NCBI GenBank assembly: GCA_033763555.1
Contig: JANRKK010000036.1
Span: 2,418 to 66,417 of the forward strand
Direction of reading: 5' to 3'
Length of the DNA stretch: 64,000 nucleotides
DNA from: Alphaproteobacteria bacterium
GTDB taxonomy: Bacteria; Pseudomonadota; Alphaproteobacteria; UBA9219
Position numbers and translations under genes: made by a program. Under the pieces are notes generated by a model that searched no databases, had not been told where the DNA came from, and was given only the letters and a program-made list of their open reading frames with translations. Of this stretch, positions 24,054 to 37,492 are shown piece by piece (the stretch's first letter is position 1; each line of letters starts with the position of its first letter).

Positions 24054-24571
24054 AGAGAACGCTTCGCCTGCACACCCGTTTCCTGTTGCCTGCCTTCTGC
24101 CTTCTGGCCGCTTGCGGATTTCAGCCGATCTATGGCGCGCAGGATAAAACGGGAACGCCCGTCGCCGGGCAGCTGAATCAGATTGCGATCGATAATATTC
24201 CCGAACGCTCCGGCCAGATTCTGCGCAATGAACTGATCGACCGCATGTATGGCCAGGGCCGCCCGCGACAACCGCTTTACAGACTCGAAGTAAAATTGCG
24301 CGCGACGCAGGAAGATCTCGGCCTCCGCGCCAACGCCACATCGACGCGAACCCTGCTGAACATGAATGCCGATTACATCCTGCGCGCAACGCAAGGCAAG
24401 GAATTGCTGCGCGGCACGGCGCACAGCATCACCAATTTCAACCGCCTGAGCACACAATACGGCAATGTCAGCGCGCTGGATGCCGCAACCGAACGCACCC
24501 TGCGCGAGGTGAGCGAGCAGATCGTCAACCGCCTCGCGCTTTATTTTGCCGAGACGGCAACGGCGAACTAG
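24050..24571 (+). CDS. lptE: LPS-assembly lipoprotein LptE
   Basis: It overlaps the leuS stop (ATGA), has the lipobox LLAAC, and its size and position after leuS are canonical. Confidence 0.75.
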
Positions 24572-24689
24572 ATATCTATAGATGCTTCCTTATAAGGTTA
24601 ACGGCAGTTGATAAGGGCTCTTTGTAAGAAAACAACTATTGATTCTAAGTGGTTAATTTCCTGTGCTTAACTTACAAGATGTGCCTGAA

Positions 24690-24731
24690 AATAAAGCTTT
24701 TTCTTGACTTATGCGCTCGCTTTACGGTAGC
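24690..24731 (+). promoter_or_regulatory. putative promoter element copy 1 (AAAGCTTTTTCTTGACTT) upstream of propeller gene 1
   Basis: An 18-nt element with a TTGACT -35-like core lies about 107 nt upstream of ATG 24800. It is 16/18 identical to the element at 26992-27009. Confidence 0.35.
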
Positions 24732-24799
24732 AACGTCCCGCCCATGGGTCACGCGAAAGATTGACCTTGAACTTATAAATTATTGCAAAGTGAGGAATC

Positions 24800-25834
24800 A
24801 TGCGCATCCAGAAATTATTTAAAGCTGTAAAAGATTCTATCTGCGGGCTTGCCGCCCTGTCAGCTGTTGCCCTGTCGCCATACGCAGCACGCGCTCAGGA
24901 TATTATAGAAGTTGAGATTCCCAAGGCTGACGGGGCCGATGTATCCGGACCCACCAGCGCTGGACGCAACATCATATTCCCTATCAACAGGCCTGGCACC
25001 ACAGGTCATCGAATTGGAGTGTTCACGCCGGAGGGACGCCCCTTTGCTGTCTTCGTGCCGACGACTCATGAAGAACAACTTGAAGGCGCCGATGTTAAAA
25101 ACGTCGCCAAAGGCCCTGGCGGTGCCTGGGGTACGCGCTACGATGCAAACGATGTTATCAAGCTCAATCTTGGCAGCGGAAGATTTAAAAAATTTGCCCT
25201 TCCGCCGAACAGCGGTCCTTTTGATCTGGTTCAGGGATCTGGAGGAATGTTTGTTACGCTGAAAATAGCAAACCAGATCGCTAAATTAAATTCCAGGGGA
25301 CAAGTTAAGGCCACATACGATATCCCCACGCCTAACAGCGGCGTTTCCCTTATTGTCAGGGGTGGAGGAGCTTTCAGAACCAGTGTTTTCTTCCTGGAGT
25401 CCAACGTCAATAAGGTGGGTGCATTTAATACTGTTACAGAAACTTTCAATGAATACCCGCTCCCTGCGGCGTGGGGAAAACCGAAGGACATCGCTGTTGA
25501 TCCCAAGACGGGCAATCTTTTGCTCGTTACCGAAAACGGATATTTCGGCAGCATGACCCCAACAGGCAGCTTCACGGCGTTTCCAGAACCCGGTGGAACT
25601 CGCCTCACAGGCGTAGCGGTCGATCCCAAGGGTAAGGTAGCGTGCACAAGCCATCAGGGCGGCACAATCTATTGCGCAACAACCAATGGAGAGCCCCTGG
25701 TAAGCATGCAGGTTCCAACGGATGCTCCCGATCTGATAGGCGTGGCCTTCTTTAGGGGTGGAAAACCGCAGCGGGGTCTTTCTCTCGAAAGAGATCAGGG
25801 ACAAGCGGCGATTTTCCCGGTTCCCAAGCCATAA
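24800..25834 (+). CDS. secreted beta-propeller repeat protein (Vgb/streptogramin-lyase-like or NHL-like), paralog 1
   Basis: It has a signal peptide and repeated blades of the form F.LP...GP.DL..G.DG..W.T...N.I.KL...G....Y..PT..SG. It has an SD GAGGA, and GC is about 50%. Confidence 0.7.
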   Translation: MRIQKLFKAVKDSICGLAALSAVALSPYAARAQDIIEVEIPKADGADVSGPTSAGRNIIFPINRPGTTGHRIGVFTPEGRPFAVFVPTTHEEQLEGADVKNVAKGPGGAWGTRYDANDVIKLNLGSGRFKKFALPPNSGPFDLVQGSGGMFVTLKIANQIAKLNSRGQVKATYDIPTPNSGVSLIVRGGGAFRTSVFFLESNVNKVGAFNTVTETFNEYPLPAAWGKPKDIAVDPKTGNLLLVTENGYFGSMTPTGSFTAFPEPGGTRLTGVAVDPKGKVACTSHQGGTIYCATTNGEPLVSMQVPTDAPDLIGVAFFRGGKPQRGLSLERDQGQAAIFPVPKP

Positions 25835-25855
25835 GCAGCCCTAAAAGCTGCCTTA

Positions 25856-26425
25856 TTAAACTGTAGTCTCGCTGGCTGTATCCAGAGCCATGCGCGCAAT
25901 GGCCAACGAAAATCCTGCGCGCGCCAGAACGGCTAGATCCTTGCGGCGTTGATCGGGCGCAGTTTTACCAGAACGAAAAGCGCCGAGTTTTTTTCGTCGC
26001 GCCAGCTTGCGTGCCGCGGTCAGTTCGACCTCTTCTGACTCCTCGCCTTCAAAAGCCGTGCGAACGATATTCTTGGAAATACCTGCCTGTGCCAGCTTCT
26101 GCTCGATGGCGCGGCGGGAGCGCCCCGCACGGCGCAGGCTGTTCAGCTTGGTTTCCGTGAAAGCCTTGTCATTCAGCACGCCGTTTTTTGTGTGCCGCTC
26201 GATAATGTTGGTTATAGTTTCGCGTAGTTTTTTTTGCGCAACATGGTCGGAAGCGAATGCCGTATCATGCATGGCTGCACGGCGCAGGCGGTTCTCCAGC
26301 ACACGGCGCAAGGCAGCTTCCGACGCCGCATAGCGTGCGAGATAGGCAAGCGCGACCTTGGCAAGCCGTTCGGAAGTCGGGATGGCGTAGCGGCGGGATT
26401 TGCGCTTCATAAGCCCCTGAATCAT
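25856..26425 (-). CDS. recX: recombination regulator RecX
   Basis: LAYLARYAASEAALRRVL... shows the three-repeat helical RecX architecture, 189 aa. Confidence 0.85.
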   Translation of the reverse strand: MIQGLMKRKSRRYAIPTSERLAKVALAYLARYAASEAALRRVLENRLRRAAMHDTAFASDHVAQKKLRETITNIIERHTKNGVLNDKAFTETKLNSLRRAGRSRRAIEQKLAQAGISKNIVRTAFEGEESEEVELTAARKLARRKKLGAFRSGKTAPDQRRKDLAVLARAGFSLAIARMALDTASETTV

Positions 26426-26535
26426 CTTTGCAACACAGGCCGGGAAAGCGCCAAACTTAAACCATTTTTAAGTTTTATAAAGCTTAGGATAAGGCTGTTT
26501 CAGGGATTTGCCGTCATTACTGAACGGAATCCGCC

Positions 26536-26841
26536 ATGCAGAGCGATCAGCATCGTTATTTTATTGAATTACAGCCCGCTGCAGGCGCGACCGTGCCGCG
26601 CAACCGCGAAGACGAAATCCGCCGCGAGCAGGCCGCCCACTTCATCACCGCCATCTATGCCTGGCTGAAAAACAACGCGCTGGGCGACAAGGTTTCCGCC
26701 GTCGCCATGACCGCCTTTGGCCAGGTGCAGATCACCTGCGAAGCCGATGTCATCAGCCGTCTGTCGGACGAGGAAGAGCTGCAGATCGCCGCCATTCGTC
26801 CAAGCGCCCTGTATGTCGAAGGCATGGGACGGCGGTTTTAA
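26536..26841 (+). CDS. hypothetical protein
   Basis: A 101-aa ORF between recX and propeller gene 2; it has a weak RBS and no recognised domain. Confidence 0.4.
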   Translation: MQSDQHRYFIELQPAAGATVPRNREDEIRREQAAHFITAIYAWLKNNALGDKVSAVAMTAFGQVQITCEADVISRLSDEEELQIAAIRPSALYVEGMGRRF

Positions 26842-26989
26842 AAAACGGCGAAGGCAGGAATTGGACGTCAAAAAAATAAATGGCACCTTCAAAGTATCCT
26901 TAACAAAAAATGAGTATGGCCAAACGTTAGAAGAGAAATCGGCTTTGTATCATTAATTTTCTTTAACAACCTTCCCAAAACCAGCGAAA

Positions 26990-27031
26990 GCAAAGCTTTT
27001 CCTTGACCTTCATTTCGGTCATAAGCTAAGA
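26990..27031 (+). promoter_or_regulatory. putative promoter element copy 2 (AAAGCTTTTCCTTGACCT) upstream of propeller gene 2
   Basis: It is 16/18 identical to the element at 24693-24710 and lies about 95 nt upstream of ATG 27087. Confidence 0.35.
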
Positions 27032-27086
27032 ACAGCCTCGTCATGTTGGCCCGCGACGGGCTTAAAAATTATTCAGGAGATAGTCT

Positions 27087-28118
27087 ATGAAAATCAAAGA
27101 ACTTCTTACATCCACAAAACTGGCCGCCTTTGCTACCGCTGCCACTCTGCTCCTGGCACCTCAATCTTCTCGCGCTCAATGGACAAAAGAAGTTTCCGTT
27201 CCATCGGCCCTTGGCGCCATAATGTCGCCGCCCGTCAGTGTTCGACGCAGTGTAGCGTTTGCCGTGAATCACCCCACCTATCAGCAGGTTGTCGTCACAA
27301 CGAGAAATGGTGCGGTGACGTCCACGTCCATACCGGCAACGGTCAGTGAGAAAAACAAAGGACCGGCTGTGACGGATATTGCCGATGGTCCCGGTGGGAT
27401 TTGGTTTACCCAATTCCATCTCGACAAGGTTGGTAGAGCCAGCCGAAGCGGAAATGTTGTTAAATATGCTCTTCCGGAAAACAGCCGTCCGACCGGCCTG
27501 ACTGAGGGACCCAAGCACGACATGTTCGTTGTCCTCCAGGGATCCGATTCCATTGCCCGACTCAAAAGAGGTGTGGTCGTCGCCGAATACAGCGTTCCTA
27601 CGCCGGATAGCGGCTTGGTTCATATCGCCAGCGGTGCCGGCCCTTCTCGTGACAATCTCTTTTTCACAGAGTGGAGAGCCGGTCAGATTGGCATCTTGAA
27701 CGCCAAGACAAATACTATCAGTGAGTATGCGCTTCCTGCGGGATTGCATACACCCACCGATATCACGGTCGATCCGAAAACAGGAAATGCCTGGTTCCGC
27801 GTAGAGGGTGACGCGCAGATCGCCATGATAACGCCGACGGGCAATATCACCGGCTTTGTGATCTCTCCCGAAGGTTATAGCGCCTCGGGCATCGCCGTCA
27901 CCCGTGACGGGGCCGTATGTGCCCCCGTGCCGGAAGCGCATGTGATTGCCTGCATGCAGCGTGATGGAAGTCCCCTGGCCGATATTCGCATCCCGTCGGA
28001 TGGATGCCTGTCAGGCGTTGCTGCTTTCAAGGGACCGCAACACAGTCGGCGCCCCGACATCGCGGTGATTGAAAATTGCGCTGCGCGCGTAGGCTTGGCA
28101 CCAGTACCAACTCCTTAA
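27087..28118 (+). CDS. secreted beta-propeller repeat protein (Vgb/NHL-like), paralog 2
   Basis: It has a signal peptide MKIKELLTSTKLAAFATAATLLLAPQSSRA and is about 35% identical to the 24800..25834 product across shared blade motifs (PTP.SG, VDPKTGN). It has an SD AGGAGA. Confidence 0.7.
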   Translation: MKIKELLTSTKLAAFATAATLLLAPQSSRAQWTKEVSVPSALGAIMSPPVSVRRSVAFAVNHPTYQQVVVTTRNGAVTSTSIPATVSEKNKGPAVTDIADGPGGIWFTQFHLDKVGRASRSGNVVKYALPENSRPTGLTEGPKHDMFVVLQGSDSIARLKRGVVVAEYSVPTPDSGLVHIASGAGPSRDNLFFTEWRAGQIGILNAKTNTISEYALPAGLHTPTDITVDPKTGNAWFRVEGDAQIAMITPTGNITGFVISPEGYSASGIAVTRDGAVCAPVPEAHVIACMQRDGSPLADIRIPSDGCLSGVAAFKGPQHSRRPDIAVIENCAARVGLAPVPTP

Positions 28119-28156
28119 TATATTGCGGACTGCGTAAAGAACGGCGAGCGATTCTC

Positions 28157-31100
28157 TTACGAGATACGCCAGACTTCCATGATGGTGTTTTTCTTGACGG
28201 TCATCGTGCCGCTGGTGTTCTTTTGTATTTGAAGTTTTAAAGTTCCAGCCGTGTTCATGGATACATAACCCATGATTTGAATGGTGTAATTGTTGGTCGT
28301 GCCGCCCAGATTTCCTGTGAAAGATCCTGAGCCCGAAAGAACGTTGCTGGCATCGACGCCGGAGCCGCTTAGCGAAGAGAAACCGGACTCTACTGCCGTA
28401 GCTGTTGCGGCTGTCATGGCAAGCTTCCAGGTGGCGGTGTTGGAAGAGACTATGGTCCCTAAAATTCTGAATCCCCATACGGTTCCCGCGGGCAGGGAAG
28501 CTGATTCACAGCCTGTCACGTCGTAGGTCACCCCAAACGAAGCGGTCGTATAGTCGCTGCCATTGCCGCAATATCCGACCCACCGGTAGAAGCCACCTTC
28601 AGCCGTGGAGGTGTGGTTGTGCGCGGCAGGGGTGCCAGCAGCACCGATCTGGTTCCATGTGCTGCTGTAATAGACTTCCATCGTCGGCACCGTACTGTTG
28701 TACCGAACCATACCATCCGAAGGAGAACCGGGACGCTGGCCCGTCGTACCCGTAGGCAGCAGCATGGCGCCCGTGGTGTTCATGGTGATTTTGCCTGTGC
28801 CCTTCGGCGCGATATTGATATCGATATTGCTGTCCGATCCTATCGCCGAGATGGTAGGGCCATTGCCCGTTGTCGCGCCCGCAATCTGCACATAATTTAC
28901 GCCCGAAGCTGTTGATTGCAGATAGAGCGTTCGACCAGCCGTACTTGTGCTGTTTGTCATGTCTCCTAATAGCAGGTTGCCTATATTTAAATGATAACTT
29001 GTGCTGGACGCAGGCGTATCCACCAGGGCCGTCGTGCCGATCAAGATATTGTTGCTGCCTGTTGTTAAAACAATGGAGCTGACAGATGGCCCAATGGCCA
29101 CATTGTTTGACCCGGTTGTGACGGCTCCCAATGCATCATAACCTAAGGCAACGTTATAGGTTCCGGTCGTGTTTGCATCCAAAGCTGCAGAACCAACCGC
29201 TGTATTGTTGGCGCCGGTTGTACTTGCATCTAAAGCGTTATAGCCAACGGCTGTATTGTAATTTCCGCTGCCGATAGTAGCAGCGGCACCCACGACCGTA
29301 CTATAAGAACCTGTAGTTGAAGCATCCGCTCCCAGGGCAACGCTGTAAGTCGTGCCGCCTGCACTCGCCTGAAAACCAACCGCTGTGTTGTAGGTGCCCG
29401 TCGTGCTGGCCTGTGCGCTGGCGCCCACCGCTGTGTTGCGATGACCGGTTGTAGCTGATGACATTGCACTGTAACCGATCGCCGTATTCAAAATCCCCGT
29501 TGTGTTGCCCGAAAGCGCCGTCGAGCCAATGGCCGTATTAAGAGCTCCGCTCGTGTTGCCATTCAATGCATTCGCACCGAGTGCTACATTGTTTGAGCTT
29601 GATAAGAGGCCAACCCCCGGCCCTGTTATGGATGCCAAGGCACCCGTCCCTATGGCGATGTTCCACACACCGGAAAGAATACCCAAATTGGTCGTAATTG
29701 AAGGAAGAGTTGAAGCGCTTCCAACGACGGTGTTGGCGTTCGTCGTATCCTGCCAGAACATTGTGCCGCCATTGAATTGCAAGACGCCCGCAGAACCAAC
29801 AGGGGCGAAATTCATGTGCTGCGTTGCTGTGGCGCCGCCGACGGCAAGCTTCACAGCGGTGCCGCTCTTGCCCGGTGTGATGGACAGATAATCTACGCCG
29901 CTGGCAATGGTATTCCACCGCTCAACTTCGATGCCGCCTGCGGCAACATTGACGGTATTCGCGCCTGAGCTAAAGAATCCGGTTGTCGCATCGCCCGAAC
30001 GACGCGGGTTAGCTGCCGAAGCCGATGTGCCAAGATCAATGGTCGAAGAACCGCCGCCTGTGCCCAGCGAATTCCATGTGCTGTTGTAATAGGCCTCGAT
30101 AGCTGGCGTCGTGCTGTTGTAACGGATCATGCCCGCCACGCCCGTAGGACGCGTGCCCGTCGTACCAACGGGAAGCAGCACGCTGCTTGTGTGGGCGCTA
30201 ACATCAAGGGCCGTGCCTGTCGTCGGCGCGCTGGGACCGATGGAGAGAGCGCCCGATGTATTCATGACGACCCGGACGGCCGCGGCGGTTCCATCCCAGA
30301 TATAAAGATTGCTGGCATAAGGTGCGCCTGTTGCGGAACCGCCCGTCGATATATTGTAGGTACGGCTGGCCGTCTTCAGTGATAATTCGGAGAAAGCATT
30401 TGTTGCCGTAGTCTCAATAAGAGCTGGTACAGTCTGCCCACTTGCTGAGCTGTAAACATGCAGCTTGTTGCCCGGAGCCGTCGTGCCAATGCCAACCCCG
30501 CCCGTGCCCTTGGGCGTCAGCACGATACCGATATTACTGTCCGAGCCTTGCGCCGAAAGCGCGGGATGCGCCGTGGTCGCTGCGCCTGCCACTTGCAGGT
30601 AATTCACGCCCGACGCCGTCGATTGCAGATAGAGGGTTTTGTTATAGGTTCCCGTGCTGTTGGTCATATCGCCTTGCAGCAGGTTACCGATGTTCAGATT
30701 GTAATTGGTTCCCGCGGCCGCTGTGGTCACAGCGTTGGACGTACCAATCAAAATGTTGTTGCCGCCCGTCGTCAGGGTCGATGAGGCGACACCATAACCG
30801 ATCGCTACGTTATTTGTCCCGGTGGTAATGCTGGAGCCGCTCGACACGCCTATCCCCGTATTGCTGGCCCCGGTTGAATTGCTGACCAATGCGAAATGTC
30901 CAACAGCCGTGTTATCGGCACCAGTTGTGTTGCTTTTTAATGAATCGTAGCCCACAGCAGTGTTACGACTACCTGTTGTAAACGCTAACGCTTCATTACC
31001 TACGGCAACGTTACGAATGCCAGTTGAATTTGTTTTAAGAGCCCACACGCCGAGCGCCGTATTATCAGCGCCGGTCGTATTGGCAGTAAGTGCGATGGTT

Positions 31101-34100
31101 CCAATCCCTATATTTCCATAACCCGTGGTGTTGGCATTCATCGCCTGATAGCCTACGGCGATATTGCCAGAACTGTCAGCAGCCGTAGCGGCCAACGCCT
31201 GATAGCCGATGGCTATATCTATCGTACCCGGTTTCACGCCCGTACCGATGCCGATCGCGGTGGTGGTGGAGGCGGAATAAGTATCCGTCGCACTGCTGGT
31301 ACCAATCAAAATATTATTCGTGCCCGTCGCCAGGGTCGTACTGCCGACCCGATAACCAATGCCGACATTGTTGGTACCTGTGGTGTTGGTTTTTAAGGCT
31401 TCCATTCCCAAGGCCGTATTGAAAGCGCCCGTCGTGTTGCCGATAAGCGCCGATGCGCCCGCGGCCGTATTGCTGGCTCCGGTGGTCGTATTTCTCAGCG
31501 CCTGGGCACCCAGCGCTGTATTGGCTGATGCGCCCGTGGTGACAAAAAGCGCAAAAGAGCCTATCGCCGTACTGTTACCGCTCGTCGCGCTATCTTTCAT
31601 GGCCGATGCGCCAACAGCTGTATTGCTCGTGCCCGTCGTATTGGCATTCAAAGCGCTACTCCCGAGCGCCGTGTTCCAGAGGCCGTTGAAGCCGCCGCCC
31701 GCCTGGGAAATTGTTCCTGAGCCCGCACTCTGACCGACAATCGTATTGGCGGCGCCATCTGACCAGAACATATTGCGGCCGTTGAACTGCAGGGTGCTTG
31801 TGGTGCCCGCCGTGGCGAGATTCAAACCTTGTGTTGCGGTCGCGCCAGCCGCTGCTATCTTGGGATAGGTGCCGCTCTTGCCCGGTGTGATGTCAACATA
31901 ATCGACGCCTGAAGCAATGGTATTCCACCGCATCGCTTCGATGCCACCTGCCGCGACGTTCACGATGTTTGCGCCCGACGTATAGAAACCCGTCGTCGCA
32001 TCGCCCGAACGCTGCGGGTTCGCTGCCGAGGCCGAGGTACCGAGTGTCAGGTTGTTACTGAGCGTGCTGTTGCTGCTCAACAGACTGTTCCAGGTGCTGT
32101 TGTAATAGGCCTCCATGCCCGTCAGCGTTGAATTGTAGCGCACCATGCCGTTGGCAGCCGTAGGACGCTGGCCCGTCGTACCGCCCGGAAGCGTCAGGGC
32201 CGTCGTCGCACTCATGGTCAGAATGCCGGCGCCCTTCGGCGTAAAGGTCATGCTGATATCCGTATCGGAACCTTGCGCCGAAAGCACCGGCGCGGCGCCT
32301 GCCGCAGCACCAGCCACCTGCAGATAATTCACACCCGATGCCGTCGACTGAAGATACAGAGTCTTATTGTAGGTTCCCGTGCTGTTGGTCATATCGCCCT
32401 GCAGCAGGTTGCCGACATTGAGATTGTAATTGGTTCCGGCGGCCGCTGTATCCACCGCGCTCGATGTACCGACAAGGATGTTGTTGGCTCCGGTTGCCAG
32501 AGTTGTCGAAGCGACCTGATAGCCGATCGCGACGTTATTCGTACCTGTCGTGATTTTTGAACCGCCCTGGAAACCGATACCTATATTGGCGACACCTGTC
32601 GTATTGGCGACAAGGGCGCTTGTACCAAAAGCTGCATTGCCAGCGCCTGTCGTATTAGCGGCGAGGGCACTTGTGCCAACGGCTGTATTGGAAGTACCTA
32701 TTGTGTTGCTTTGTAAAGCATTGCCACCCACAGCCGTGTTGAAGAAACCCGTGGTATTGGCATTGAGGGCTTGATAGCCGACGGCTGTATCCAGCCGTCC
32801 GTTAAATCCACCGCCTGTTTGGGAAATCGTCGCAGGCGCGCCGCTGAGCCCTACGATGGTGTTGAAGTTTGTTGCATCCTGCCAGAACATCGTGCTGCCA
32901 TTGAATTGCAGGACACCTGCTGCACCCACCGGGGCAAAATTCAGATGCTGCGTTGATGTCGCGCCAGCAGCGGCGAGCGTCACGGCCGTGCCGCTCTTGC
33001 CTGGTGTAATGGAGAGGTAATCAACACCTGAGGCGATGGTGTTCCAGCGCATCGCCTCGATGCCGCCTGCAGCGACGTTGACGGTGTTCGCGCCCGATGT
33101 GAAGAAGCCGGTTGTCGCATCGCCCGAGCGCTGCGGGTTTGTATCCGAAGTTGAAGTGCCCAAAACCGTGGTTCCGCCGGGAGCGGCGCTGGTCAGCAGT
33201 TCTTCCCAGGATCCGTCGATATAGGCTTCCACGGCTGGCGTATCGCTGTTGTAGCGAATCATGCCGTCCGCTGGTGAAGCTGGCTGTTGACCCGTTGTGC
33301 CACCCGGAAGCGTCAGGGCCGTTGTTGCATTCATGGTCAGAATGCCAGCGCCCTTTGGCGTGAAGGTCATACTGATGTCTGTATCGGAACCTTGCGCTGA
33401 AAACACCGGAGCCGCGCCTGCCGCCGCGCCCGCAATTTGCAAATAATTCACCCCCGACGCTGTCGATTGCAGATAGAGGGTTTTGTTATGCGTGGCATCG
33501 CTGTTGGTCATATCGCCCTGCAGCAGATTGCCAATATTTAAATTATAATTGGTACCATCCGCCGCATCCACGGCATCCGTTGTCCCTATCAGAATATTGT
33601 TCGACCCCGAAGTTAACGTTTGCGAGCCAACGCCATACCCAATGCTCACGTTATAAGAACCATCTTCATTCGCGCCGCCAGCATCACTTCCGATGCCAAT
33701 ATTGCCAACACCGCTCGCGTTGTTCGCAAGGGCGCCGCTGCCAATGGCAGTGTTGTTCGCGCCTGTTGTGAGTTGAAAAAGAGAATTAATACCAATCGCT
33801 GTGTTATAAACACCCGTTGAATTTGCATTAAGGGCGTAATGGCCAACCGCCGTATTGTAGCTGCCTGTTGTATTGTTGTTTAAAGCAGAAAATCCCAAGC
33901 CTGTATTGTTGACACCTTCTGTGTTGAAATAGAGGACTTGAAGACCAACTGCTGTGTTGTTGATGCCCGTTGTATTCGACGCAAGGGCGAGGCCGCCTAC
34001 TGCTGTATTATAATTGCCTTCCGTGTTTGCGCCCAGGGCTTGGTTTCCTACCGCTGTATTGAGGATACCAGTTGTATTGAGCTGAAGCGCTTGCGTGCCT

Positions 34101-36802
34101 ATTGCCGTATTTTCGTAGCCCGTCGTATTCGTGAACAACGAAACAAATCCAACCGCTGTGTTACCATAACCTTCGGTATTACCCTGCATGGCTCCGGCAC
34201 CAAGAGCTGTGTTGCCTTGTCCGGTCGTGTTCGAGCCCAGTGCGGCCGCACCGATGGCCGTGTTGACGCCTCCGGTGGAGTTGACACTCAAGGTTTGAAA
34301 CCCAACAGCTGTATTGTATTTGCCGTTATTGCCACCGCCAGCCTGAGAAAGGCTTCCCGGCATACCTGTATCACCGACAGCTATATTTGCATTAACCTCA
34401 TCCTGCCAAATTCCATTGAGACCACCGAGATGCAAAGCACCCGTCACGATATTCACATTGCCTGTGCCCGCAGGGGCGAGATCGAGCGTTTGATTGCTGG
34501 TCGCACCAGCAACGGCAAGTTTGACGTTCGTACCGCTCTTGCCCGGCGTGACGGACACATAATCCACGCCGCTGGCCATCGTGTTCCAGCGCATCACTTC
34601 GATACCGCCAGCCGCAACGTTGACGGTGTTCGCACCGGATGTGAAGAAACCGGTTGTCAGATCGCCCGAGCGTTGCGGGTTTGTGTTGGCGGCTTGCGTA
34701 CCGAGTGTGATGCCGCCACTGATGGTGCCCGTGACGTTACCCGTGAGATTGCCGACGAAAGTTCCAGCCGTTACCGTGCCGCCAAACGTCGCATTGCCTG
34801 TGGAGCGCTCAATCGACAAAGGTGTACCCAGCGCCGTGCCATTGTCATGGAAGCTTTGAATGGTGAAGTTCGAGCCCGCATCGCTGCCGCCTTCCGCCGC
34901 GCTATTCGTGCTGACAACCCAGCGCTTGCTGGTCGCACCCGTCGTAAACTGAATTTCGCGGCTCGTGCCCGCGGCACCTTCGATGCGGATATTGCCGACA
35001 AGATCGAGCCGTTCATTCGGCACGGTTGTGCCGAGGCCGAGATAGCCATTCTCATCCAAAATCGCCTGATCGACGCCGCCCGTGGTGAAGGTGATACCGT
35101 CATTATTCAGCGTTACGGTCTGTCCATTGCCGTCGCTTAAAACATTGGTCGAAACATTCGTCGCATAGGTCAGACGGCCATCGGCATCGACCGTACCCCA
35201 GTTGTAGCTTCCGGGCGTAACGGTCGTTGATTCCAGCTGCAACGGCCCTACCGTGCCATCTTGAATGGCGCTTCCAGGAATTGAGTTGGTCGCAAAACGG
35301 TTGGTGTCGAGAACGCCCGTTGTCAGGTTGGCCGCGTCGTTGGCGCCGAGATTGGAACGTGCCGTCGGCGCCGTTGTCGCGCCCGTACCGCCATTGGAAA
35401 TGGCAACGACGCCGCTGACATTGGTTGCATTGCCTGTCAGGGGGCCGCTGAAATTCGCAGCCGTCACAGTGCCGGAGAAAGTCGCACCGCTGCCCGACAT
35501 GGCACCGCCGAAGGTGCTGGTACCTGTGACGCCCAAGGTGCCGCCCACCGTCGCATTGCTGCCGATAGCAGCAGAGCTCAGCGTGCTGGCTCCGGCCTCC
35601 AGTGTTCCGCCCACAATGGCATTCGTCGTAACGCCCAGAGAATCGAAGGTGCCCGCGCCGCCCGCGACCGCACCGCCAAACGTCGCATCGCCTGTGACGC
35701 CCAAGGTGCCGCCGACGGCAGCATTATTGGTGATGGTGGCGGAACTGAGTGTGCTGGCTCCGGCGCTTAAAGTGCCGCCCAGGGTCGTATTGCCTGTGAC
35801 GCCAAAAGTACCGCCAACAGTGGCGTTATTGGTCACGCCGAGGGATGAGAAAGTGCCCGCGCCGCCCGCAACAGCGCCGCCGAAAGTGGCATCACCCGTA
35901 ACACCCAAAGTGCCGCCGACGGTCGCGTTGGTTGTTACAGCGGCGGAATTCAATGTGCTTGCGCCCGCCGATAAAGCACCGGAGAAAGCGCCGCTGGCCG
36001 CCGAGATCGCGCCTGTACTGACGGCCGCCAGTGTTGAGGTGCCTTGAACGTCAAGGGTTCCCCGAACGAGCAGATTACCGCTTGAGTCGACAACCAGCTG
36101 CGAGCCGACTTGACCGAATTGCACCGATGTTGTGTTGCCACCGCTGACCGTCGCCTGCCAGACCGCCGAGCGGTTGACCGCCGTCATCACGGGCCAGGAG
36201 AGAATGATGTCATCGCCTTGCGCCGAGGCATCGCCGCATCGTGTGTTCAGAGAACCGTCCGGCCCGGCAGACAGGATCATGAAAGCAGGATCGCTTCCAG
36301 GGCTGGTAGGATTTTCCCAACGGCAATAAATGTAATAATGGCCGTAGCCGTCCATTTGCTTGAGGCCCGACCCGGCGGTGAAAACACCGACTTCCGCCGG
36401 AGAGCCGGATGAACCCGCGCTGCTGGCATTGGCGGGAAGTTGCGCCTGCCCGCTGATCGCCGCCATTTTGACTGTCGAGGATGCGCACTCCGCCGAAGCA
36501 CTGCCGCCCTGCGGCGGGCAAAGCAAGGTTGTGTCAGCGCTGAGCGTTGAAGTTGCAGCCAGGGTAGTCGCGTTGGCGTTGAGATCGCCCTTGGTCGTCA
36601 TGTCATTGGTCATCTGCACGTTGCTGCGCAGAATCTGGCTGTAACCGCTGAAGAGAACGCCCGCACCGACGCCGACAAGGCCGAGCATGTACAGAATGGG
36701 GGCAATGCCAAAGCCCGCGCGGCGGCGTACCGAAGGCGAAGACGAACATGGCCGGAAGAAAGGCCGGGAGCGGCGCGCGGCTTGTGAATCTTTCTCTGTC
36801 AT
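28157..36802 (-). CDS. giant (2881 aa) membrane-anchored fibrous repeat protein (YadA-head/Hep_Hag-like and phage tail-fibre-like repeats)
   Basis: ATG 36802 has the SD GGGAG. The N-terminus is Arg-rich, followed by a TM helix GFGIAPILYMLGLVGVGAGVLF. It has long runs of 17-aa repeats NTAVGxxALxxNTTGxx. Four roughly 450-aa super-repeats each contain ...NVAAGGIEAMRWNTIASGVDY.SITPGKSGT... and ...TLPGGTTGQRP...GM[IV]RYNST.P..EAYYNSTWN.L. It has a unique C-terminal about 200-aa domain. It is Thr/Gly/Ala/Asn/Ser-rich, and its GC is heterogeneous, at 47-58%. Confidence 0.85.
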   Translation of the reverse strand: MTEKDSQAARRSRPFFRPCSSSPSVRRRAGFGIAPILYMLGLVGVGAGVLFSGYSQILRSNVQMTNDMTTKGDLNANATTLAATSTLSADTTLLCPPQGGSASAECASSTVKMAAISGQAQLPANASSAGSSGSPAEVGVFTAGSGLKQMDGYGHYYIYCRWENPTSPGSDPAFMILSAGPDGSLNTRCGDASAQGDDIILSWPVMTAVNRSAVWQATVSGGNTTSVQFGQVGSQLVVDSSGNLLVRGTLDVQGTSTLAAVSTGAISAASGAFSGALSAGASTLNSAAVTTNATVGGTLGVTGDATFGGAVAGGAGTFSSLGVTNNATVGGTFGVTGNTTLGGTLSAGASTLSSATITNNAAVGGTLGVTGDATFGGAVAGGAGTFDSLGVTTNAIVGGTLEAGASTLSSAAIGSNATVGGTLGVTGTSTFGGAMSGSGATFSGTVTAANFSGPLTGNATNVSGVVAISNGGTGATTAPTARSNLGANDAANLTTGVLDTNRFATNSIPGSAIQDGTVGPLQLESTTVTPGSYNWGTVDADGRLTYATNVSTNVLSDGNGQTVTLNNDGITFTTGGVDQAILDENGYLGLGTTVPNERLDLVGNIRIEGAAGTSREIQFTTGATSKRWVVSTNSAAEGGSDAGSNFTIQSFHDNGTALGTPLSIERSTGNATFGGTVTAGTFVGNLTGNVTGTISGGITLGTQAANTNPQRSGDLTTGFFTSGANTVNVAAGGIEVMRWNTMASGVDYVSVTPGKSGTNVKLAVAGATSNQTLDLAPAGTGNVNIVTGALHLGGLNGIWQDEVNANIAVGDTGMPGSLSQAGGGNNGKYNTAVGFQTLSVNSTGGVNTAIGAAALGSNTTGQGNTALGAGAMQGNTEGYGNTAVGFVSLFTNTTGYENTAIGTQALQLNTTGILNTAVGNQALGANTEGNYNTAVGGLALASNTTGINNTAVGLQVLYFNTEGVNNTGLGFSALNNNTTGSYNTAVGHYALNANSTGVYNTAIGINSLFQLTTGANNTAIGSGALANNASGVGNIGIGSDAGGANEDGSYNVSIGYGVGSQTLTSGSNNILIGTTDAVDAADGTNYNLNIGNLLQGDMTNSDATHNKTLYLQSTASGVNYLQIAGAAAGAAPVFSAQGSDTDISMTFTPKGAGILTMNATTALTLPGGTTGQQPASPADGMIRYNSDTPAVEAYIDGSWEELLTSAAPGGTTVLGTSTSDTNPQRSGDATTGFFTSGANTVNVAAGGIEAMRWNTIASGVDYLSITPGKSGTAVTLAAAGATSTQHLNFAPVGAAGVLQFNGSTMFWQDATNFNTIVGLSGAPATISQTGGGFNGRLDTAVGYQALNANTTGFFNTAVGGNALQSNTIGTSNTAVGTSALAANTTGAGNAAFGTSALVANTTGVANIGIGFQGGSKITTGTNNVAIGYQVASTTLATGANNILVGTSSAVDTAAAGTNYNLNVGNLLQGDMTNSTGTYNKTLYLQSTASGVNYLQVAGAAAGAAPVLSAQGSDTDISMTFTPKGAGILTMSATTALTLPGGTTGQRPTAANGMVRYNSTLTGMEAYYNSTWNSLLSSNSTLSNNLTLGTSASAANPQRSGDATTGFYTSGANIVNVAAGGIEAMRWNTIASGVDYVDITPGKSGTYPKIAAAGATATQGLNLATAGTTSTLQFNGRNMFWSDGAANTIVGQSAGSGTISQAGGGFNGLWNTALGSSALNANTTGTSNTAVGASAMKDSATSGNSTAIGSFALFVTTGASANTALGAQALRNTTTGASNTAAGASALIGNTTGAFNTALGMEALKTNTTGTNNVGIGYRVGSTTLATGTNNILIGTSSATDTYSASTTTAIGIGTGVKPGTIDIAIGYQALAATAADSSGNIAVGYQAMNANTTGYGNIGIGTIALTANTTGADNTALGVWALKTNSTGIRNVAVGNEALAFTTGSRNTAVGYDSLKSNTTGADNTAVGHFALVSNSTGASNTGIGVSSGSSITTGTNNVAIGYGVASSTLTTGGNNILIGTSNAVTTAAAGTNYNLNIGNLLQGDMTNSTGTYNKTLYLQSTASGVNYLQVAGAATTAHPALSAQGSDSNIGIVLTPKGTGGVGIGTTAPGNKLHVYSSASGQTVPALIETTATNAFSELSLKTASRTYNISTGGSATGAPYASNLYIWDGTAAAVRVVMNTSGALSIGPSAPTTGTALDVSAHTSSVLLPVGTTGTRPTGVAGMIRYNSTTPAIEAYYNSTWNSLGTGGGSSTIDLGTSASAANPRRSGDATTGFFSSGANTVNVAAGGIEVERWNTIASGVDYLSITPGKSGTAVKLAVGGATATQHMNFAPVGSAGVLQFNGGTMFWQDTTNANTVVGSASTLPSITTNLGILSGVWNIAIGTGALASITGPGVGLLSSSNNVALGANALNGNTSGALNTAIGSTALSGNTTGILNTAIGYSAMSSATTGHRNTAVGASAQASTTGTYNTAVGFQASAGGTTYSVALGADASTTGSYSTVVGAAATIGSGNYNTAVGYNALDASTTGANNTAVGSAALDANTTGTYNVALGYDALGAVTTGSNNVAIGPSVSSIVLTTGSNNILIGTTALVDTPASSTSYHLNIGNLLLGDMTNSTSTAGRTLYLQSTASGVNYVQIAGATTGNGPTISAIGSDSNIDINIAPKGTGKITMNTTGAMLLPTGTTGQRPGSPSDGMVRYNSTVPTMEVYYSSTWNQIGAAGTPAAHNHTSTAEGGFYRWVGYCGNGSDYTTASFGVTYDVTGCESASLPAGTVWGFRILGTIVSSNTATWKLAMTAATATAVESGFSSLSGSGVDASNVLSGSGSFTGNLGGTTNNYTIQIMGYVSMNTAGTLKLQIQKNTSGTMTVKKNTIMEVWRIS
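29862..30010 (-). repeat. intragenic direct DNA repeat copy (about 150 bp) inside the giant gene
   Basis: CCGCTCTTGCCCGGTGTGAT...TCGCATCGCCCGAACG.CGCGGGTT is near-identical to the copies at 31872, 32990 and 34543. Confidence 0.8.
31872..32020 (-). repeat. intragenic direct DNA repeat copy
   Basis: As above. Confidence 0.8.
32990..33139 (-). repeat. intragenic direct DNA repeat copy
   Basis: As above. Confidence 0.8.
34543..34681 (-). repeat. intragenic direct DNA repeat copy
   Basis: As above. Confidence 0.8.
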
Positions 36803-37021
36803 AAGCTCCCACCCACGCAAGCCTTCTGCGCCCAGGGCGCATGCCGAAAAGGAAGGTGCGTTTCCTGACTGTGCGTTTGAAACGTTAAAAATTGGTCAAA
36901 CCAATGAAATTTCTGGCTTTTCGGCATGCACGCAAAAGTTGAAATGCTGGATTTTCAGCCCTTTTTTGAAGGCAATTTATTTCAAATTGTTAACATCCTG
37001 CAGGCCGTGTATTTCAACGCC

Positions 37022-37492
37022 ATGTCCGCGATCAAAAAACGCCTTGCCGAACTGGGTTTCACGCTGCCGCCGCCCGCGCCTGCCGTTGCGCTCTATGTGC
37101 CCTATGTCGTCACCGGAAATCTGGCCTTTATTTCGGGCCAGATACCGCTGGAAAACGGCCAGGTGAAGCTTACGGGGCGTCTGGGCGCGGAAGTTGATCT
37201 GGCGGCAGGCCAGAAGGCGGCGCAGCTCTGCGCATTGAACATTCTTGCGCAGCTGAACAAAGCCTGCGGTGGCGATCTCGATCGCGTCAAACGATGCGTC
37301 AAGCTGGGCGGATTCGTCGCTTCCGCACCGGATTTCTTTGATCATTCCAAAATCATCAATGGCGCATCGGACGTCATGCAGCAGGTCTTCGGCGAGACTG
37401 GACGGCATGCGCGTTTTGCTGTGGGCGTCAGTACCTTGCCGTTGAATTCAGCCGTGGAAGTCGACGCGGTTTTTGAAATCAACCCAGCCTAG
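37022..37492 (+). CDS. RidA/YjgF/Rid-family protein
   Basis: MSAIKKRLAELGFTLP...ISGQIP...GGDLDRVKRCVKLGGFV...VEVDAVFE shows the YjgF chorismate-mutase-like fold motifs. ATG 37022 was chosen over the longer track ORF. Confidence 0.8.
   Translation: MSAIKKRLAELGFTLPPPAPAVALYVPYVVTGNLAFISGQIPLENGQVKLTGRLGAEVDLAAGQKAAQLCALNILAQLNKACGGDLDRVKRCVKLGGFVASAPDFFDHSKIINGASDVMQQVFGETGRHARFAVGVSTLPLNSAVEVDAVFEINPA

What the first reader, a model, noticed from the sequence alone, without database searches (positions are those of the whole stretch)
24572..36925. Lower-GC accessory island after leuS-lptE: two paralogous secreted beta-propellers and a giant fibrous protein
In most Proteobacteria leuS-lptE is followed by holA. 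Here lptE is followed by an AT-rich break and a 12-kb block with atypical composition, about 50% GC for the propeller genes and 47-58% for the giant gene, against about 60% in the core. The block encodes two diverged paralogs of a signal-peptide-bearing Vgb/NHL-like propeller and a 2881-aa membrane-anchored fibre-like protein. No integrase or transposase is present. It could be an adhesion, surface-fibre or phage-tail-like module co-acquired as a unit.
Basis: partly seen in the sequence, partly recalled or inferred. Interest (0 to 1): 0.8.

Follow-up and report, generated by a model that had tools for sequence, protein, structure and literature searches.

The report
Pilin-anchored giant tail-fibre protein, not island
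The block is not one acquired island: its giant gene and neighbours sit at the same place in related bacteria, only the two small propeller genes are newcomers, and the giant protein joins a secretion-pilus-like anchor to a phage-tail-fibre-like shaft, a combination I found no description of.

Summary
There are two paralogous, signal-peptide-bearing Vgb-lyase-family propellers (36% identical) and a 2881-aa fibre protein with an N-terminal membrane helix. There is no integrase, transposase or tRNA.

A relative, L041, has leuS-lptE-recX-orf101-[Fic]-giant-Rid-DUF4175-lysA-hslUV in the same order but without propellers. Two other relatives share one side each. Only the propellers are compositionally atypical (GC3 z -3.3 and -2.3). 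The giant's conserved N-terminal 780 codons are core-like, and its GC dips coincide with 17-residue repeat runs. No usable propeller relative was found elsewhere, and none lies beside six examined fibre homologues.

The most likely function is a trimeric surface adhesin anchored by, or displayed through, pilin-like helices. This is inferred, not shown.

The parts
21453..24571 (+). leuS (21453-24053) and lptE (24050-24571): conserved left flank
   Evidence: ORF and translation; Pfam LptE. The same pair is present in 36 related loci.
24572..24799 (+). AT-rich spacer (38.6% GC) holding the propeller A upstream element AAAGCTTTTTCTTGAC at 24693-24708
   Evidence: GC. The 16-nt motif occurs only here and upstream of propeller B; 0 of 100 shuffles gave two matches. 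Alignment of the two upstream regions.
24800..25834 (+). Propeller A: 344-aa Sec-signal Vgb_lyase-family beta-propeller. A lineage-specific insertion between the convergent 3' ends of lptE and recX.
   Evidence: PF24684 E 5.7e-19. GC3 0.507, z -3.3. Absent from L041 and L005, where lptE and recX abut.
   Evidence: PF02631 E 2.5e-7; NCBIfam RecX models hit at E 1.3e-19 but below their cut-offs. Orthologues lie next to lptE in L041 (60%) and L005 (54%).
26536..26841 (+). orf101: conserved 101-aa protein of unknown function, divergent from recX; part of the backbone
   Evidence: 62-65% identical copies in L041 and L002, and 55-56% in L005 and L015. No Pfam hit. Core-like codon usage.
26842..27086 (+). 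AT-rich spacer (40% GC) with the propeller B upstream element AAAGCTTTTCCTTGAC at 26992-27007
27087..28118 (+). Propeller B: 343-aa Sec-signal Vgb_lyase-family beta-propeller. It occupies the variable slot between orf101 and the 3' end of the giant gene.
   Evidence: PF24684 E 1.6e-32. PDB Vgb 2qc5/2z2n E 1e-28 to 1e-30. GC3 0.552. The same slot holds Fic in L041 and a 168-aa ORF in L002.
36128..36802 (-). Giant protein residues 1-225: basic 30-aa leader ending in Gly, G|F site, 21-24 hydrophobic residues, then a GspG-like pseudopilin head (a degenerate DGYG here where most family members have DPWG; SAGPDG...GDD)
34721..36127 (-). Giant residues about 226-694: Gly/Thr/Ala-rich fibre repeats and a '...NGGTGATT..AR.NLG' segment. 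Together with the pseudopilin module this forms the roughly 740-aa part conserved with orthologues.
   Evidence: blastp gives 45-53% identity over residues 1-750 to P0004, P0005 and P0007. GC3 0.62-0.72.
28658..34720 (-). Giant residues about 695-2715: four super-modules starting near residues 695, 1209, 1582 and 2252. Each has a roughly 100-aa NPxRSGD domain, a run of 17-residue NTAVGxxALxxNTTGxx repeats, a 'NIGNLL...LYLQSTASGVNY...PKGxG' element and a 'GTTGQRP...RYNS' element. All are phage-tail-fibre-like.
   Evidence: Motif positions and the 17-residue period. DNA repeat copies 60-79% identical. PHROG 6002, 23837 and 4636 hits. tblastn to Pelagibacter, Roseobacter and E. coli phage tail fibres.
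28157..28657 (-). Giant residues 2716-2881 plus stop: orphan, non-S74 C-terminal tip
   Evidence: No homologue in the 5.8-billion-protein database or among family members. No Peptidase_S74 hit, unlike most homologues. The single-sequence AF2 model has pLDDT 48 and is unusable.
36926..37492 (+). Rid/YjgF-family gene: conserved right flank, followed by DUF4175, lysA and hslU
   Evidence: Pfam. The same order lies next to the giant orthologue in L041 and L004.

Best explanation
The interval is a conserved chromosomal neighbourhood of an uncultured alphaproteobacterial clade: leuS-lptE | recX-orf101 ... giant | Rid-DUF4175-lysA-hslUV. It has received two small, compositionally foreign genes. These encode Sec-exported Vgb-lyase-fold beta-propellers that are old paralogues of each other and share a promoter-region element.

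The giant gene is native. It encodes a mosaic fibre with three parts: (1) an N-terminal class-III-like signal and GspG-like pseudopilin module; (2) phage-tail-fibre-like, presumably trimeric, beta-structure modules; (3) a private C-terminal tip in place of the S74 chaperone that most relatives carry.

Inferred mechanism:
- The prepilin-like helix inserts the protein in the inner membrane with its N-terminus inside.
- Three chains trimerise in the periplasm.
- The three pilin-like modules either remain as the membrane anchor or seed or cap a type-4 filament or pseudopilus, which pushes the fibre through a secretin. CofB and TcpB are trimeric tip pilins that do this.
- The tip is thereby presented as a ligand-binding adhesin, functionally like the Bdellovibrio MAT fibres.

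The propellers are probably periplasmic or secreted binding proteins or enzymes. They are not streptogramin lyases, and nothing shows a link to the fibre.

Shown: gene content, paralogy, synteny, composition, remote homology to GspG, and homology to phage tail fibres. Inferred: trimerisation, leader cleavage, export route and adhesin role.
For: Synteny:
- L041 has hslVU-lysA-DUF4175-Rid-giant-Fic-orf102-RecX-LptE-LeuS-DUF3576-porin-HD-argS, with core proteins 58-75% identical to the window.
- L004 shares hslVU-lysA-DUF4175-Rid-giant.
- L005 has lptE-recX-orf101 contiguous.

Composition:
- Only the propellers are outliers.
- The first 780 codons of the giant have GC3 0.62-0.72.
- The GC3 dips fall on the repeat runs.

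Propellers:
- 36% identity to each other.
- A shared 16-nt upstream element.
- No relatives found elsewhere.
- The Vgb motif E268-P-H270 is replaced by K-P-K in propeller A and T-P-T in propeller B.

Giant family:
- 136 homologues, many with Peptidase_S74.
- The N-terminal profile finds 243 clusters and is always N-terminal.
- Across 116 members, position +1 is F in 114 and position +5 is P in 110; the Gly at -1 was required by the search pattern, but G4 and F5 are independently invariant in alignment A1.
- hhalign to GspG scores 87.6% and aligns the G|F site, the DPWG motif and the SAGPDG motif.
- Phage tail-fibre homology.

Precedents:
- Modular pilins (PMC8179133).
- The trimeric tip pilin CofB (PMC6048534).
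- MAT fibres with S74 or non-S74 tips (PMC10769870).
Against: - Glu5, the residue used by canonical pilins for assembly, is Pro in 110 of 116 family members.
- Pfam N_methyl gives no hit, and T2SSG does not reach threshold for the window protein.
- No prepilin peptidase, secretin or assembly ATPase is seen in the 64-kb window or within 10 kb of six homologues.
- One subclade has a 140-215-aa cytoplasmic extension before the G|F site. That is far longer than any prepilin leader I know of.
- Trimerisation is inferred only from homology to phage fibres and from the S74 domains in relatives.
- The synteny evidence rests on three metagenomic contigs.
- The propellers' lower GC3 could reflect weak expression rather than foreign origin.
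Confidence: 0.6

Rival explanations
1. The whole 12.3-kb block (propeller A, propeller B, giant) is one horizontally acquired accessory island that displaced holA. It acts as a single adhesion or phage-tail-like module.
For: - An AT-rich break follows lptE, and GC is somewhat lower across 24-29 kb.
- holA follows lptE in most distant relatives.
- The propellers have atypical codon usage.
- The giant's synonymous-codon score is borderline (z -2.0).
Against: - The giant, recX and orf101 are syntenic in L041, L004 and L005.
- recX and orf101 sit between the propellers and are core-like.
- The giant's conserved N-terminal part has core-like GC3.
- No propeller lies next to any of six fibre homologues.
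- No flanking repeats, integrase or tRNA are present.
Confidence: 0.05
2. The N-terminal helix of the giant is only an uncleaved signal-anchor, or an ordinary export signal, that happens to resemble GspG. The fibre reaches the surface, or stays in the envelope, by a route unrelated to type-4 filaments.
For: - Pro replaces Glu5.
- No N_methyl signature is found, and no pilus or T2SS genes are nearby.
- Some homologues have long cytoplasmic N-terminal extensions.
- Foldseek finds no match.
- In L043 the downstream fibre genes use plain Sec signals.
Against: - Alignment A1 shows invariant G4 and F5 (the G|F site) immediately before a 21-24-residue uncharged stretch, with a 54-residue helix in the model.
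- hhalign aligns almost all of GspG, including the DPWG and SAGPDG motifs; the GspH control fails.
- A head domain this conserved (50% mean identity over about 215 aa) is not needed for a mere anchor.
Confidence: 0.3
3. The propellers are functional partners of the fibre, for example secreted proteins that dock on the fibre tip (as CofJ docks on CofB) or enzymes that process the fibre's target glycan. On this view propeller B was acquired together with the orphan tip.
For: - Propeller B is encoded 38 nt from the tip-encoding 3' end of the giant.
- The tip and the propellers are both unique to this genome.
- The slot next to the giant's 3' end is variable (propB, Fic or a 168-aa ORF), as are the tips.
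- In L005 the same slot holds a large NHL-repeat propeller protein.
- CofB-CofJ is a precedent (PMC6048534).
Against: - The genes are convergent, so they are not co-transcribed.
- Propeller A is separated from the giant by recX and orf101.
- The tip region has GC3 0.58-0.70, unlike the propellers.
- No co-occurrence is seen anywhere else.
- This is purely positional evidence from one genome.
Confidence: 0.1
4. The giant gene is a prophage or tailocin remnant: a real phage tail fibre left in the chromosome.
For: Strong PHROG and phage tblastn matches to tail fibres and tail spikes.
Against: - No other phage gene lies within 25 kb on either side.
- At 2881 aa it is far longer than the matched phage fibres.
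- A conserved non-phage pseudopilin module sits at the N-terminus in 243 clusters.
- It sits at a conserved chromosomal position between housekeeping genes in three genomes.
Confidence: 0.03
5. The propellers are streptogramin B (virginiamycin B) lyase resistance genes.
For: Pfam Vgb_lyase hits and PDB Vgb hits at E 1e-28 to 1e-39.
Against: - NCBIfam Vgb(A)/Vgb(B) scores are 38-93 bits against a cut-off of 600.
- Identity to annotated lyases is only 28-34%.
- Both paralogues carry an export signal, whereas Vgb acts in the cytoplasm (my knowledge).
- The residues aligned with Vgb E268 and H270 are K/K in propeller A and T/T in propeller B. That these are the catalytic Mg2+ ligands is from my memory of Korczynska et al. 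2007; it is consistent with the H270A entry 2z2p.
Confidence: 0.02

Closest known systems
Modular type IV pilins and trimeric tip minor pilins (S. sanguinis PilB/PilC; ETEC CofB; V. cholerae TcpB; T2SS GspK)
   Same: - An N-terminal pilin module: a hydrophilic leader ending in Gly, about 21 hydrophobic residues, a long alpha-1 helix and a beta-sheet head.
- A functional module grafted C-terminally.
- CofB homotrimerises and sits at the pilus tip, where it presents a binding domain (PMC6048534, PMC8179133).
   Different: - Pro instead of Glu at +5.
- No IPR012902/N_methyl signature.
- The head is GspG-like rather than minor-pilin-like.
- The grafted part is 2650 aa here, and family members reach 5301 aa in total, against an 860-aa maximum in the published survey.
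- The grafted part is phage-tail-fibre-like.
- The gene is not in a pilus operon.
T2SS major pseudopilin GspG/EpsG/PulG
   Same: - Remote homology over almost the whole GspG sequence (hhalign 87.6%, 121 columns).
- The G|F site is aligned.
- The DPWGxxY and (S/L)xGxDGxxxT motifs are aligned.
   Different: - GspG is about 145 aa, has Glu5 and polymerises into the pseudopilus.
- Here the module is the first 8% of a giant protein and carries two invariant Cys residues.
- It lacks Glu5.
- The match does not reach Pfam T2SSG significance for the window protein.
Bdellovibrio MAT (mosaic adhesive trimer) fibres (Caulton et al. 2024, PMC10769870)
   Same: - Chromosomally encoded phage-tail-fibre-like mosaic fibres.
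- A family-invariant N-terminal anchoring domain.
- Swappable C-terminal tips, either S74 chaperone-protease or non-S74.
- Several paralogues per genome or locus.
   Different: - MATs have a cleavable Sec signal plus a roughly 130-aa beta-rich N-domain, not a pilin-like helix and head.
- MATs are about 0.6-1.2 kaa.
- The host here is not a known predator.
- No N-domain homology was tested or seen.
Phage tail fibres and tailspikes with an S74 intramolecular chaperone (endosialidase type); Pelagibacter phage HTVC111P and Roseobacter phage CRP-1 tail fibres
   Same: - The repeat modules are 37-46% identical in segments.
- PHROG tail-spike and virion-structural families hit at E 1e-74 to 1e-90.
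- Relatives end in Peptidase_S74.
   Different: - There is no phage context.
- It is several-fold longer.
- It has an N-terminal pseudopilin module instead of a virion-attachment domain.
- The window protein lacks S74.
Virginiamycin B lyase (Vgb), for the two propellers
   Same: Seven-bladed beta-propeller family: PF24684, and PDB 2qc5/2z2n at E down to 1e-39 with the two-sequence profile.
   Different: - They are exported.
- E268 and H270 are not conserved.
- They score far below the NCBIfam cut-offs.
- Identity to annotated lyases is 28-34%.

Membership tests
Type IV pilin / type-4-filament subunit (class III signal peptide) | Hydrophilic leader ending in Gly (or Ala) directly before the hydrophobic tract | tested here: met
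   G4 and F5 are invariant in the 21-sequence alignment A1. Positions -2 to -6 are rich in Arg across 116 members. The window leader is 30 aa and ends in RRRAG|F.
Type IV pilin / type-4-filament subunit (class III signal peptide) | Tract of about 21 predominantly hydrophobic residues forming the start of a roughly 50-residue alpha-1 helix, followed by a beta-sheet head | tested here: met
Type IV pilin / type-4-filament subunit (class III signal peptide) | Glu at position +5 and the N-methylation motif (IPR012902 / Pfam N_methyl) | tested here: not met
   Position +5 is Pro in 110 of 116 members and Ala in 6. No N_methyl hit appears even at E <= 10.
Type IV pilin / type-4-filament subunit (class III signal peptide) | Cleavage by a prepilin peptidase and assembly by a T4P/T2SS/Tad machinery encoded in the genome | not testable with these tools
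   No such genes lie in the 64-kb window or within 10 kb of six homologues. The rest of the genome was not available.
GspG-type major pseudopilin (Pfam T2SSG PF08334) | Sequence-profile match to T2SSG/GspG, including the DPWG and GxDG motifs | tested here: inconclusive
   hhalign of A1 against E. coli K-12 GspG gives probability 87.6%, E 3.5e-6 over 121 columns; the GspH control gives 4.4%. Pfam T2SSG is hit by 5 of 21 members, best E 0.002, and not by the window protein.
Phage tail-fibre / tailspike-like trimeric fibre with S74 intramolecular chaperone | Homology of the shaft to phage tail-fibre or spike proteins | tested here: met
   PHROG 6002, 23837 and 4636 at E 2e-90 to 9e-74. tblastn finds 102 phage records, with annotated tail fibres at 37-46% identity.
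Phage tail-fibre / tailspike-like trimeric fibre with S74 intramolecular chaperone | C-terminal Peptidase_S74 chaperone domain | tested here: not met
   The window protein has no Pfam hit. Many homologues do have it. The window tip is an orphan.
Bdellovibrio MAT superfamily | Sec signal followed by the conserved roughly 130-aa beta-rich N-terminal domain (PMC10769870) | tested here: not met
   Judged from architecture: the window protein begins with a pilin-like helix and a GspG-like head. No MAT sequence was available for direct comparison.
Genomic island (horizontally acquired unit) | Absent from related genomes at the same locus; uniform atypical composition; mobility genes, a tRNA or flanking repeats | tested here: not met
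   The giant, recX and orf101 are present at the same locus in L041, L004 and L005. Composition is atypical only for the propellers. There is no integrase, tRNA or flanking repeat.
Virginiamycin B lyase (Vgb) | Family-level sequence match (Pfam PF24684) and equivalog-level match (NCBIfam Vgb(A)/Vgb(B)) | tested here: inconclusive
   Pfam scores are 68.5 and 112.9 bits, above the 50-bit cut-off. NCBIfam scores are 38-93 bits against a cut-off of 600. The proteins share the fold family but are not equivalogs.
Virginiamycin B lyase (Vgb) | Conserved active-site residues (H228, E268, H270 in S. aureus Vgb; their roles are from my memory of Korczynska et al. 2007) | tested here: not met
   In the profile alignment to 2z2n, E268-P-H270 aligns with K-P-K in propeller A and T-P-T in propeller B. 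H228 aligns with S in A and V in B, where a His sits one residue later.

The most novel reading that the evidence does not exclude
The giant protein and its roughly 240-cluster family are giant 'tail-fibre pilins'. They would be homotrimeric phage-tail-fibre-like adhesins whose three GspG-like N-terminal modules prime or cap a type-4 filament or T2SS pseudopilus. The filament machinery would then extrude and display a fibre hundreds of nanometres long. This would be a new way for diderm bacteria to export and mount phage-derived receptor-binding proteins. The C-terminal membrane-tethered S74 chaperones seen in some members would hold the distal end until the fibre has folded.
Probability: 0.25. 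Interest if true: 0.75.

Novelty: new variant of a known kind. Interest (0 to 1): 0.45.

Why it matters
As an "island", the finding is ordinary: two orphan propeller genes dropped into a conserved locus. The by-product is more interesting.

It is a rare, uncurated family of proteins, with full-length members of roughly 0.5-5.3 kaa, in uncultured Alphaproteobacteria. The family joins a pseudopilin (GspG-like) module to a phage-tail-fibre shaft with exchangeable tips.

If the pilin module is functional, three things follow:
- The concept of modular pilins would extend several-fold in size. The published survey's largest example was 860 aa.
- Type-4-filament machinery would be linked to the display of domesticated phage receptor-binding proteins.
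- These bacteria would parallel the Bdellovibrio MAT fibres, which hints at cell-cell or host recognition in lineages with no cultured members.

The hypothesis is testable through cleavage at G|F, dependence on a secretin or ATPase, and EM of the fibres.

Tried and rejected
- Exact look-up of propeller A found nothing, probably because the deposited record uses a different start codon.
- The homologue search with propeller B returned only itself plus one hit at 26% identity.
- A JGI metagenome scan with a propA+propB alignment gave one 53-aa partial hit on a 2-kb contig. Propeller context elsewhere could therefore not be studied.
- A homologue search with the C-terminal tip found nothing. The single-sequence AF2 model of the tip had pLDDT 48, so no fold search was run on it.
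- Foldseek of the N-terminal model against the PDB gave nothing below E 0.8. The afdb50 library was unavailable.
- An HMM search of the N-terminal profile against PDB sequences gave only a spurious antibody hit.
- The 343-aa low-GC ORF at 43535-44566 was tested as a third propeller. It is unrelated and belongs to the Elm1-like family PF06258.
- No PADLOC defence hit was found for any gene in the block. There were also no Rfam hits, no tRNAs, no DNA tandem repeats and no insertion-flanking repeats.
- A tip+propB cassette acquisition was considered and dropped, because the tip's GC3 (0.58-0.70) is unlike that of propB.
- Literature searches for pilin-tail-fibre fusions returned nothing relevant.
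- The Vgb structure paper (PMC1965523) is not held, so the catalytic residue roles rest on my memory plus the H270A entry visible.
- Pfam PF26696 (PTL_trimer), listed for many homologues, is not in the local Pfam copy.
Full report
**Gene content**

ORF listing, translation and family scans give this map:

| Coordinates | Strand | Gene |
|---|---|---|
| 21453-24053 | + | leuS |
| 24050-24571 | + | lptE |
| 24800-25834 | + | propeller A (344 aa) |
| 25856-26425 | - | recX-like (189 aa) |
| 26536-26841 | + | orf101, a 101-aa ORF |
| 27087-28118 | + | propeller B (343 aa) |
| 28157-36802 | - | giant ORF (2881 aa from the ATG with a GGGAG ribosome-binding site) |
| 36926-37492 | + | Rid/YjgF |
| 37489-39063 | - | DUF4175 |
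| 39198-40469 | - | lysA-like |
| 41227-42543 | - | hslU |

- Both propellers hit Pfam Vgb_lyase (E 5.7e-19 and 1.6e-32). They are 36% identical end to end (E 1e-59).
- Both begin with a typical Sec signal ending in ARAQ. This was judged by eye.
- The window comes from an NCBI MAG labelled "Alphaproteobacteria bacterium" (locus tags SFW62_07260 and SFW62_07265).

**Composition**

- Per-kb GC is 52.5-55% across 24-29 kb, against about 58% for the window. Similar dips occur at 43-45, 52-54 and 59-60 kb.
- I compared each gene with 26 other window genes (GC3 0.663 +/- 0.048). Values below are GC3 z / synonymous-codon z.
  - Clear outliers: propA (-3.3 / -2.95) and propB (-2.3 / -2.9).
  - Within or near the core range: giant (-1.1 / -2.0), recX (-1.2 / -1.4) and orf101 (+1.3 / +1.9).
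- Inside the giant gene, the first 780 codons have GC3 0.62-0.72.
- The low values (0.44-0.55) coincide with the runs of 17-residue repeats.
- The spacers upstream of each propeller are 38.6% and 40% GC.

**Synteny**

- A scan of species-representative genomes with LptE returned 36 loci.
- In the more distant ones (L017-L040), holA follows lptE within 300 nt in about 20 of 24.
- In the closer clade (LptE 51-64% identical) the junction varies:
  - holA in L016, and 0.6-2.2 kb away in L009, L011 and L012;
  - glmM in L007, L008, L010 and L013;
  - recX in L005.
- The decisive locus is L041 (JGI contig Ga0206945_1001), reached through the giant homologue P0007. Its gene order is hslV-hslU-redoxin-lysA-DUF4175-Rid-giant(3228 aa)-Fic-orf102-RecX-LptE-LeuS-DUF3576-porin-HD-argS.
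  - This is the window's order gene for gene, with flanking proteins 58-75% identical. It lacks the propellers and has a Fic gene where propeller B lies.
- L004 shares hslVU-lysA-DUF4175-Rid-giant.
- L005 has lptE-recX-orf101 contiguous.
- The giant, recX and orf101 are thus an ancestral arrangement of this subclade. The propellers are two separate insertions into convergent 3'-3' intergenic regions.
- There are no flanking repeats, tRNA or mobility genes.

**The propellers**

- Their upstream regions are alignable. They share AAAGCTTTTYCTTGAC about 100 nt before the start codon. This motif is found nowhere else in the window, and 0 of 100 shuffles gave two matches. The duplication therefore carried its regulatory region.
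- No relative turned up in the word-indexed search of 5.8 billion proteins, apart from one hit at 26% identity. JGI metagenomes gave one 53-aa fragment. None lies in any of the six loci that hold fibre homologues.
- On plasmids the best matches are annotated virginiamycin B lyases at 28-34% identity.
- The proteins are homologous to solved Vgb structures (E 1e-28 to 1e-39).
- NCBIfam Vgb models score 38-93 bits against a cut-off of 600.
- In the profile alignment to S. aureus Vgb (2z2n), the E268-P-H270 motif is K-P-K in propeller A and T-P-T in propeller B. H228 is S in A and V in B.
  - The H270A mutant entry 2z2p is visible in the same output. The catalytic roles of these residues are from my memory of Korczynska et al. 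2007.
- Together with the export signal, this argues against streptogramin lyase activity. Their real function is unknown. A periplasmic or secreted binding protein, or another kind of enzyme, is the best guess.

**The giant protein**

- Pfam and NCBIfam give nothing meaningful.
- PHROGs gives multi-segment hits to virion structural and tail-spike families (E 2e-90 to 9e-74).
- Residues 700-1900 match annotated tail fibres of Pelagibacter, Roseobacter, Methylophilales, E. coli and Bacillus phages at 37-46% identity.
- Anatomy:
  - a leader and hydrophobic helix plus a globular head, residues 1 to about 225;
  - Gly/Thr/Ala-rich fibre repeats and a "GGTGATT...NLG" segment, to about residue 694;
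  - four super-modules starting near residues 695, 1209, 1582 and 2252, each with an NPxRSGD domain, 5-14 copies of a 17-residue NTAVGxxALxxNTTGxx repeat, a LYLQSTASGVNY...PKGxG element and a GTTGQRP...RYNS element;
  - a 166-aa C-terminal tip.
- DNA copies of the modules are only 60-79% identical, so an assembly artefact is unlikely.
- The homologue search found 136 proteins of 1.6-5.0 kaa, mostly from alphaproteobacterial MAGs and metagenomes. Many carry a C-terminal Peptidase_S74 chaperone.
- Homology to the closest homologues is continuous over the first 740 or so residues (45-53% identity) and mosaic afterwards. The tips differ.
- The window's tip has no homologue anywhere, and its single-sequence model is unusable (pLDDT 48).

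**The N-terminal module**

- Forty-three of the homologues share ...(R/A)G-F-(A/G/M)-(I/L)-A-P-(I/L)-L-Y... followed by an uncharged stretch and FSGYSQ(I/V)LRSN.
- A 21-sequence alignment (A1; 50% mean identity; invariant G4, F5, P9, Y12, D125, C134, W136 and C163) was used in several ways.
  1. Against 1.84 billion cluster representatives it finds 243 proteins at E <= 1e-3 and 143 at E <= 1e-30. The domain is always at the N-terminus. Full-length partners are roughly 500-5301 aa, and the short hits look like fragments.
  2. In 116 members, position +1 is F in 114, position +5 is P in 110, and the leader is Arg-rich. The Gly at -1 was required by the search pattern, so it is not independent evidence.
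  3. AF2 on A1 gives pLDDT 80, with one helix over residues 4-57 followed by a beta-sheet.
  5. Foldseek against the PDB gives nothing significant.
  6. hhalign of A1 against E. coli K-12 GspG gives 87.6% probability and E 3.5e-6 over 121 columns. It aligns the G|F site, DPWG(N/H)xY and (L/I)SAGPDG. The same test with GspH gives 4.4%.
  7. T2SSG is the only Pfam family recurring among members (5 of 21, best E 0.002).
- I conclude that the module is a remote GspG-type pseudopilin homologue with a class-III-like signal. It is non-canonical: Pro replaces Glu5 and there is no N_methyl signature.

**Context of homologues**

- Besides the Rid-side locus, a second recurrent context is Pribosyltran-DUF2336-(BacA or CheY-CheZ)-giant-giant (L003, L042, L043).
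- In L043 the pilin-type giant is followed by four Sec-signal fibre genes with S74 or Gly_rich_2 domains.
- L002 places the closest N-terminal homologue (69%) in a plasmid-like or defence-like region, and orf101 is still retained beside it.
- No pilus, T2SS or prepilin-peptidase gene lies within 10 kb of any of these, nor in the window.

**Interpretation and comparison with known systems**

- The architecture is that of a modular pilin (PMC8179133). It is several times larger than the largest example in that survey (860 aa) and carries a phage-tail-fibre module.
- The homotrimeric tip pilin CofB (PMC6048534) shows that three pilin modules under a trimeric beta-rich stalk can initiate and cap a type IVb pilus. 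Phage-type fibres are trimeric, so the same geometry is plausible here.
- Functionally the family parallels the Bdellovibrio MAT fibres: an invariant N-domain, a mosaic trimeric shaft, and S74 or non-S74 tips (PMC10769870).
- Against the pilus-display model:
  - the Glu5 to Pro change;
  - the lack of machinery genes nearby;
  - the modest structural scores;
  - a subclade with 140-215-aa cytoplasmic extensions before the G|F site.
- The simpler alternative is that the helix only anchors the fibre in the inner membrane. That remains a serious rival, although it leaves unexplained how a 2650-aa fibre would cross the outer membrane.
- Literature searches found no description of such a fusion. 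This covers only the held library.

**Verdict**

- The propellers are ordinary lineage-specific orphans.
- The giant protein is a native member of a rare, uncurated family that is best described as a new variant of modular pilins and tail-fibre-like adhesins.

Noticed in passing
window 17641-18051 (-): A 136-aa SET-domain protein (PF00856, E 1.4e-13) has the lowest GC3 in the window (0.40, z -5.5). It is wedged between argS and the dGTPase-like HD gene. In relative L041 those two genes abut, so this looks like a small lineage-specific insertion. Bacterial SET proteins are often host-directed effectors (my knowledge).
   Followed up: partly
window 26536-26841 (+); L041 19577-19885; L005 2007-2297; L015 712-1008; L002 23245-23565: orf101 is a conserved 101-aa protein (70% mean column identity, no Pfam family). 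It is always divergent from recX. In L002 it sits just downstream of a giant-fibre gene in the absence of recX. Its function is unknown, and a link to the fibre gene is possible.
   Followed up: partly
window 24693-24708 and 26992-27007: A 16-nt element, AAAGCTTTTYCTTGAC, lies about 100 nt upstream of both propeller genes and nowhere else in the 64 kb. It may be a shared promoter or operator.
   Followed up: yes
homologues P0005, P0008, P0010, P0011 (C-termini): Some family members end, after the S74 chaperone domain, with a transmembrane helix and a basic tail. Before autocleavage, both ends of the fibre would therefore be tethered to the inner membrane.
   Followed up: partly
homologues P0018, P0027, P0037-P0039, P0042, P0045-P0050 (N-termini): One subclade has a conserved 140-215-aa basic, HTH-like, repeat-containing extension in front of the RNRG|F site, with no internal Met. 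This would be an unprecedentedly long 'leader' for a pilin-like protein.
   Followed up: partly
L043 10001-23616; L042 10001-34079; L003 10001-32035: Fibre genes come in tandem arrays. A pilin-type giant is followed by further giants, or by Sec-signal fibre genes whose N-termini share ADCxTPTGVAGxQFYNTSYxxMQYCNG. A DUF2336 gene precedes the array in all three loci.
   Followed up: partly
L005 2406-6014 (-): In the relative with the closest LptE, the slot convergent with orf101 holds a protein of more than 1202 aa with NHL repeats and a lactonase-like propeller, running to near the contig end (6014 of 6120). It is a different propeller family from the window's, but sits in the same position.
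   Followed up: no
window 7183-11061 (-): A 1292-aa ORF has an unusually high second-codon-position GC (0.68). Its only Pfam hit is a C-terminal OmpA domain. It is probably a low-complexity envelope protein.
   Followed up: no
window 43535-44566 (-): A 343-aa Elm1-like protein (PF06258, Mito_fiss_Elm1) has low GC3 (0.517, z -3.1). It is another compositionally atypical gene outside the block.
   Followed up: partly
window 37489-39063 (-): The DUF4175/TIGR02302 gene is 524 aa and covers only positions 144-593 of the 825-position Pfam profile. The orthologues in L041 (511 aa) and L004 (455 aa) are similarly short, so this is a clade feature rather than a truncation.
   Followed up: partly
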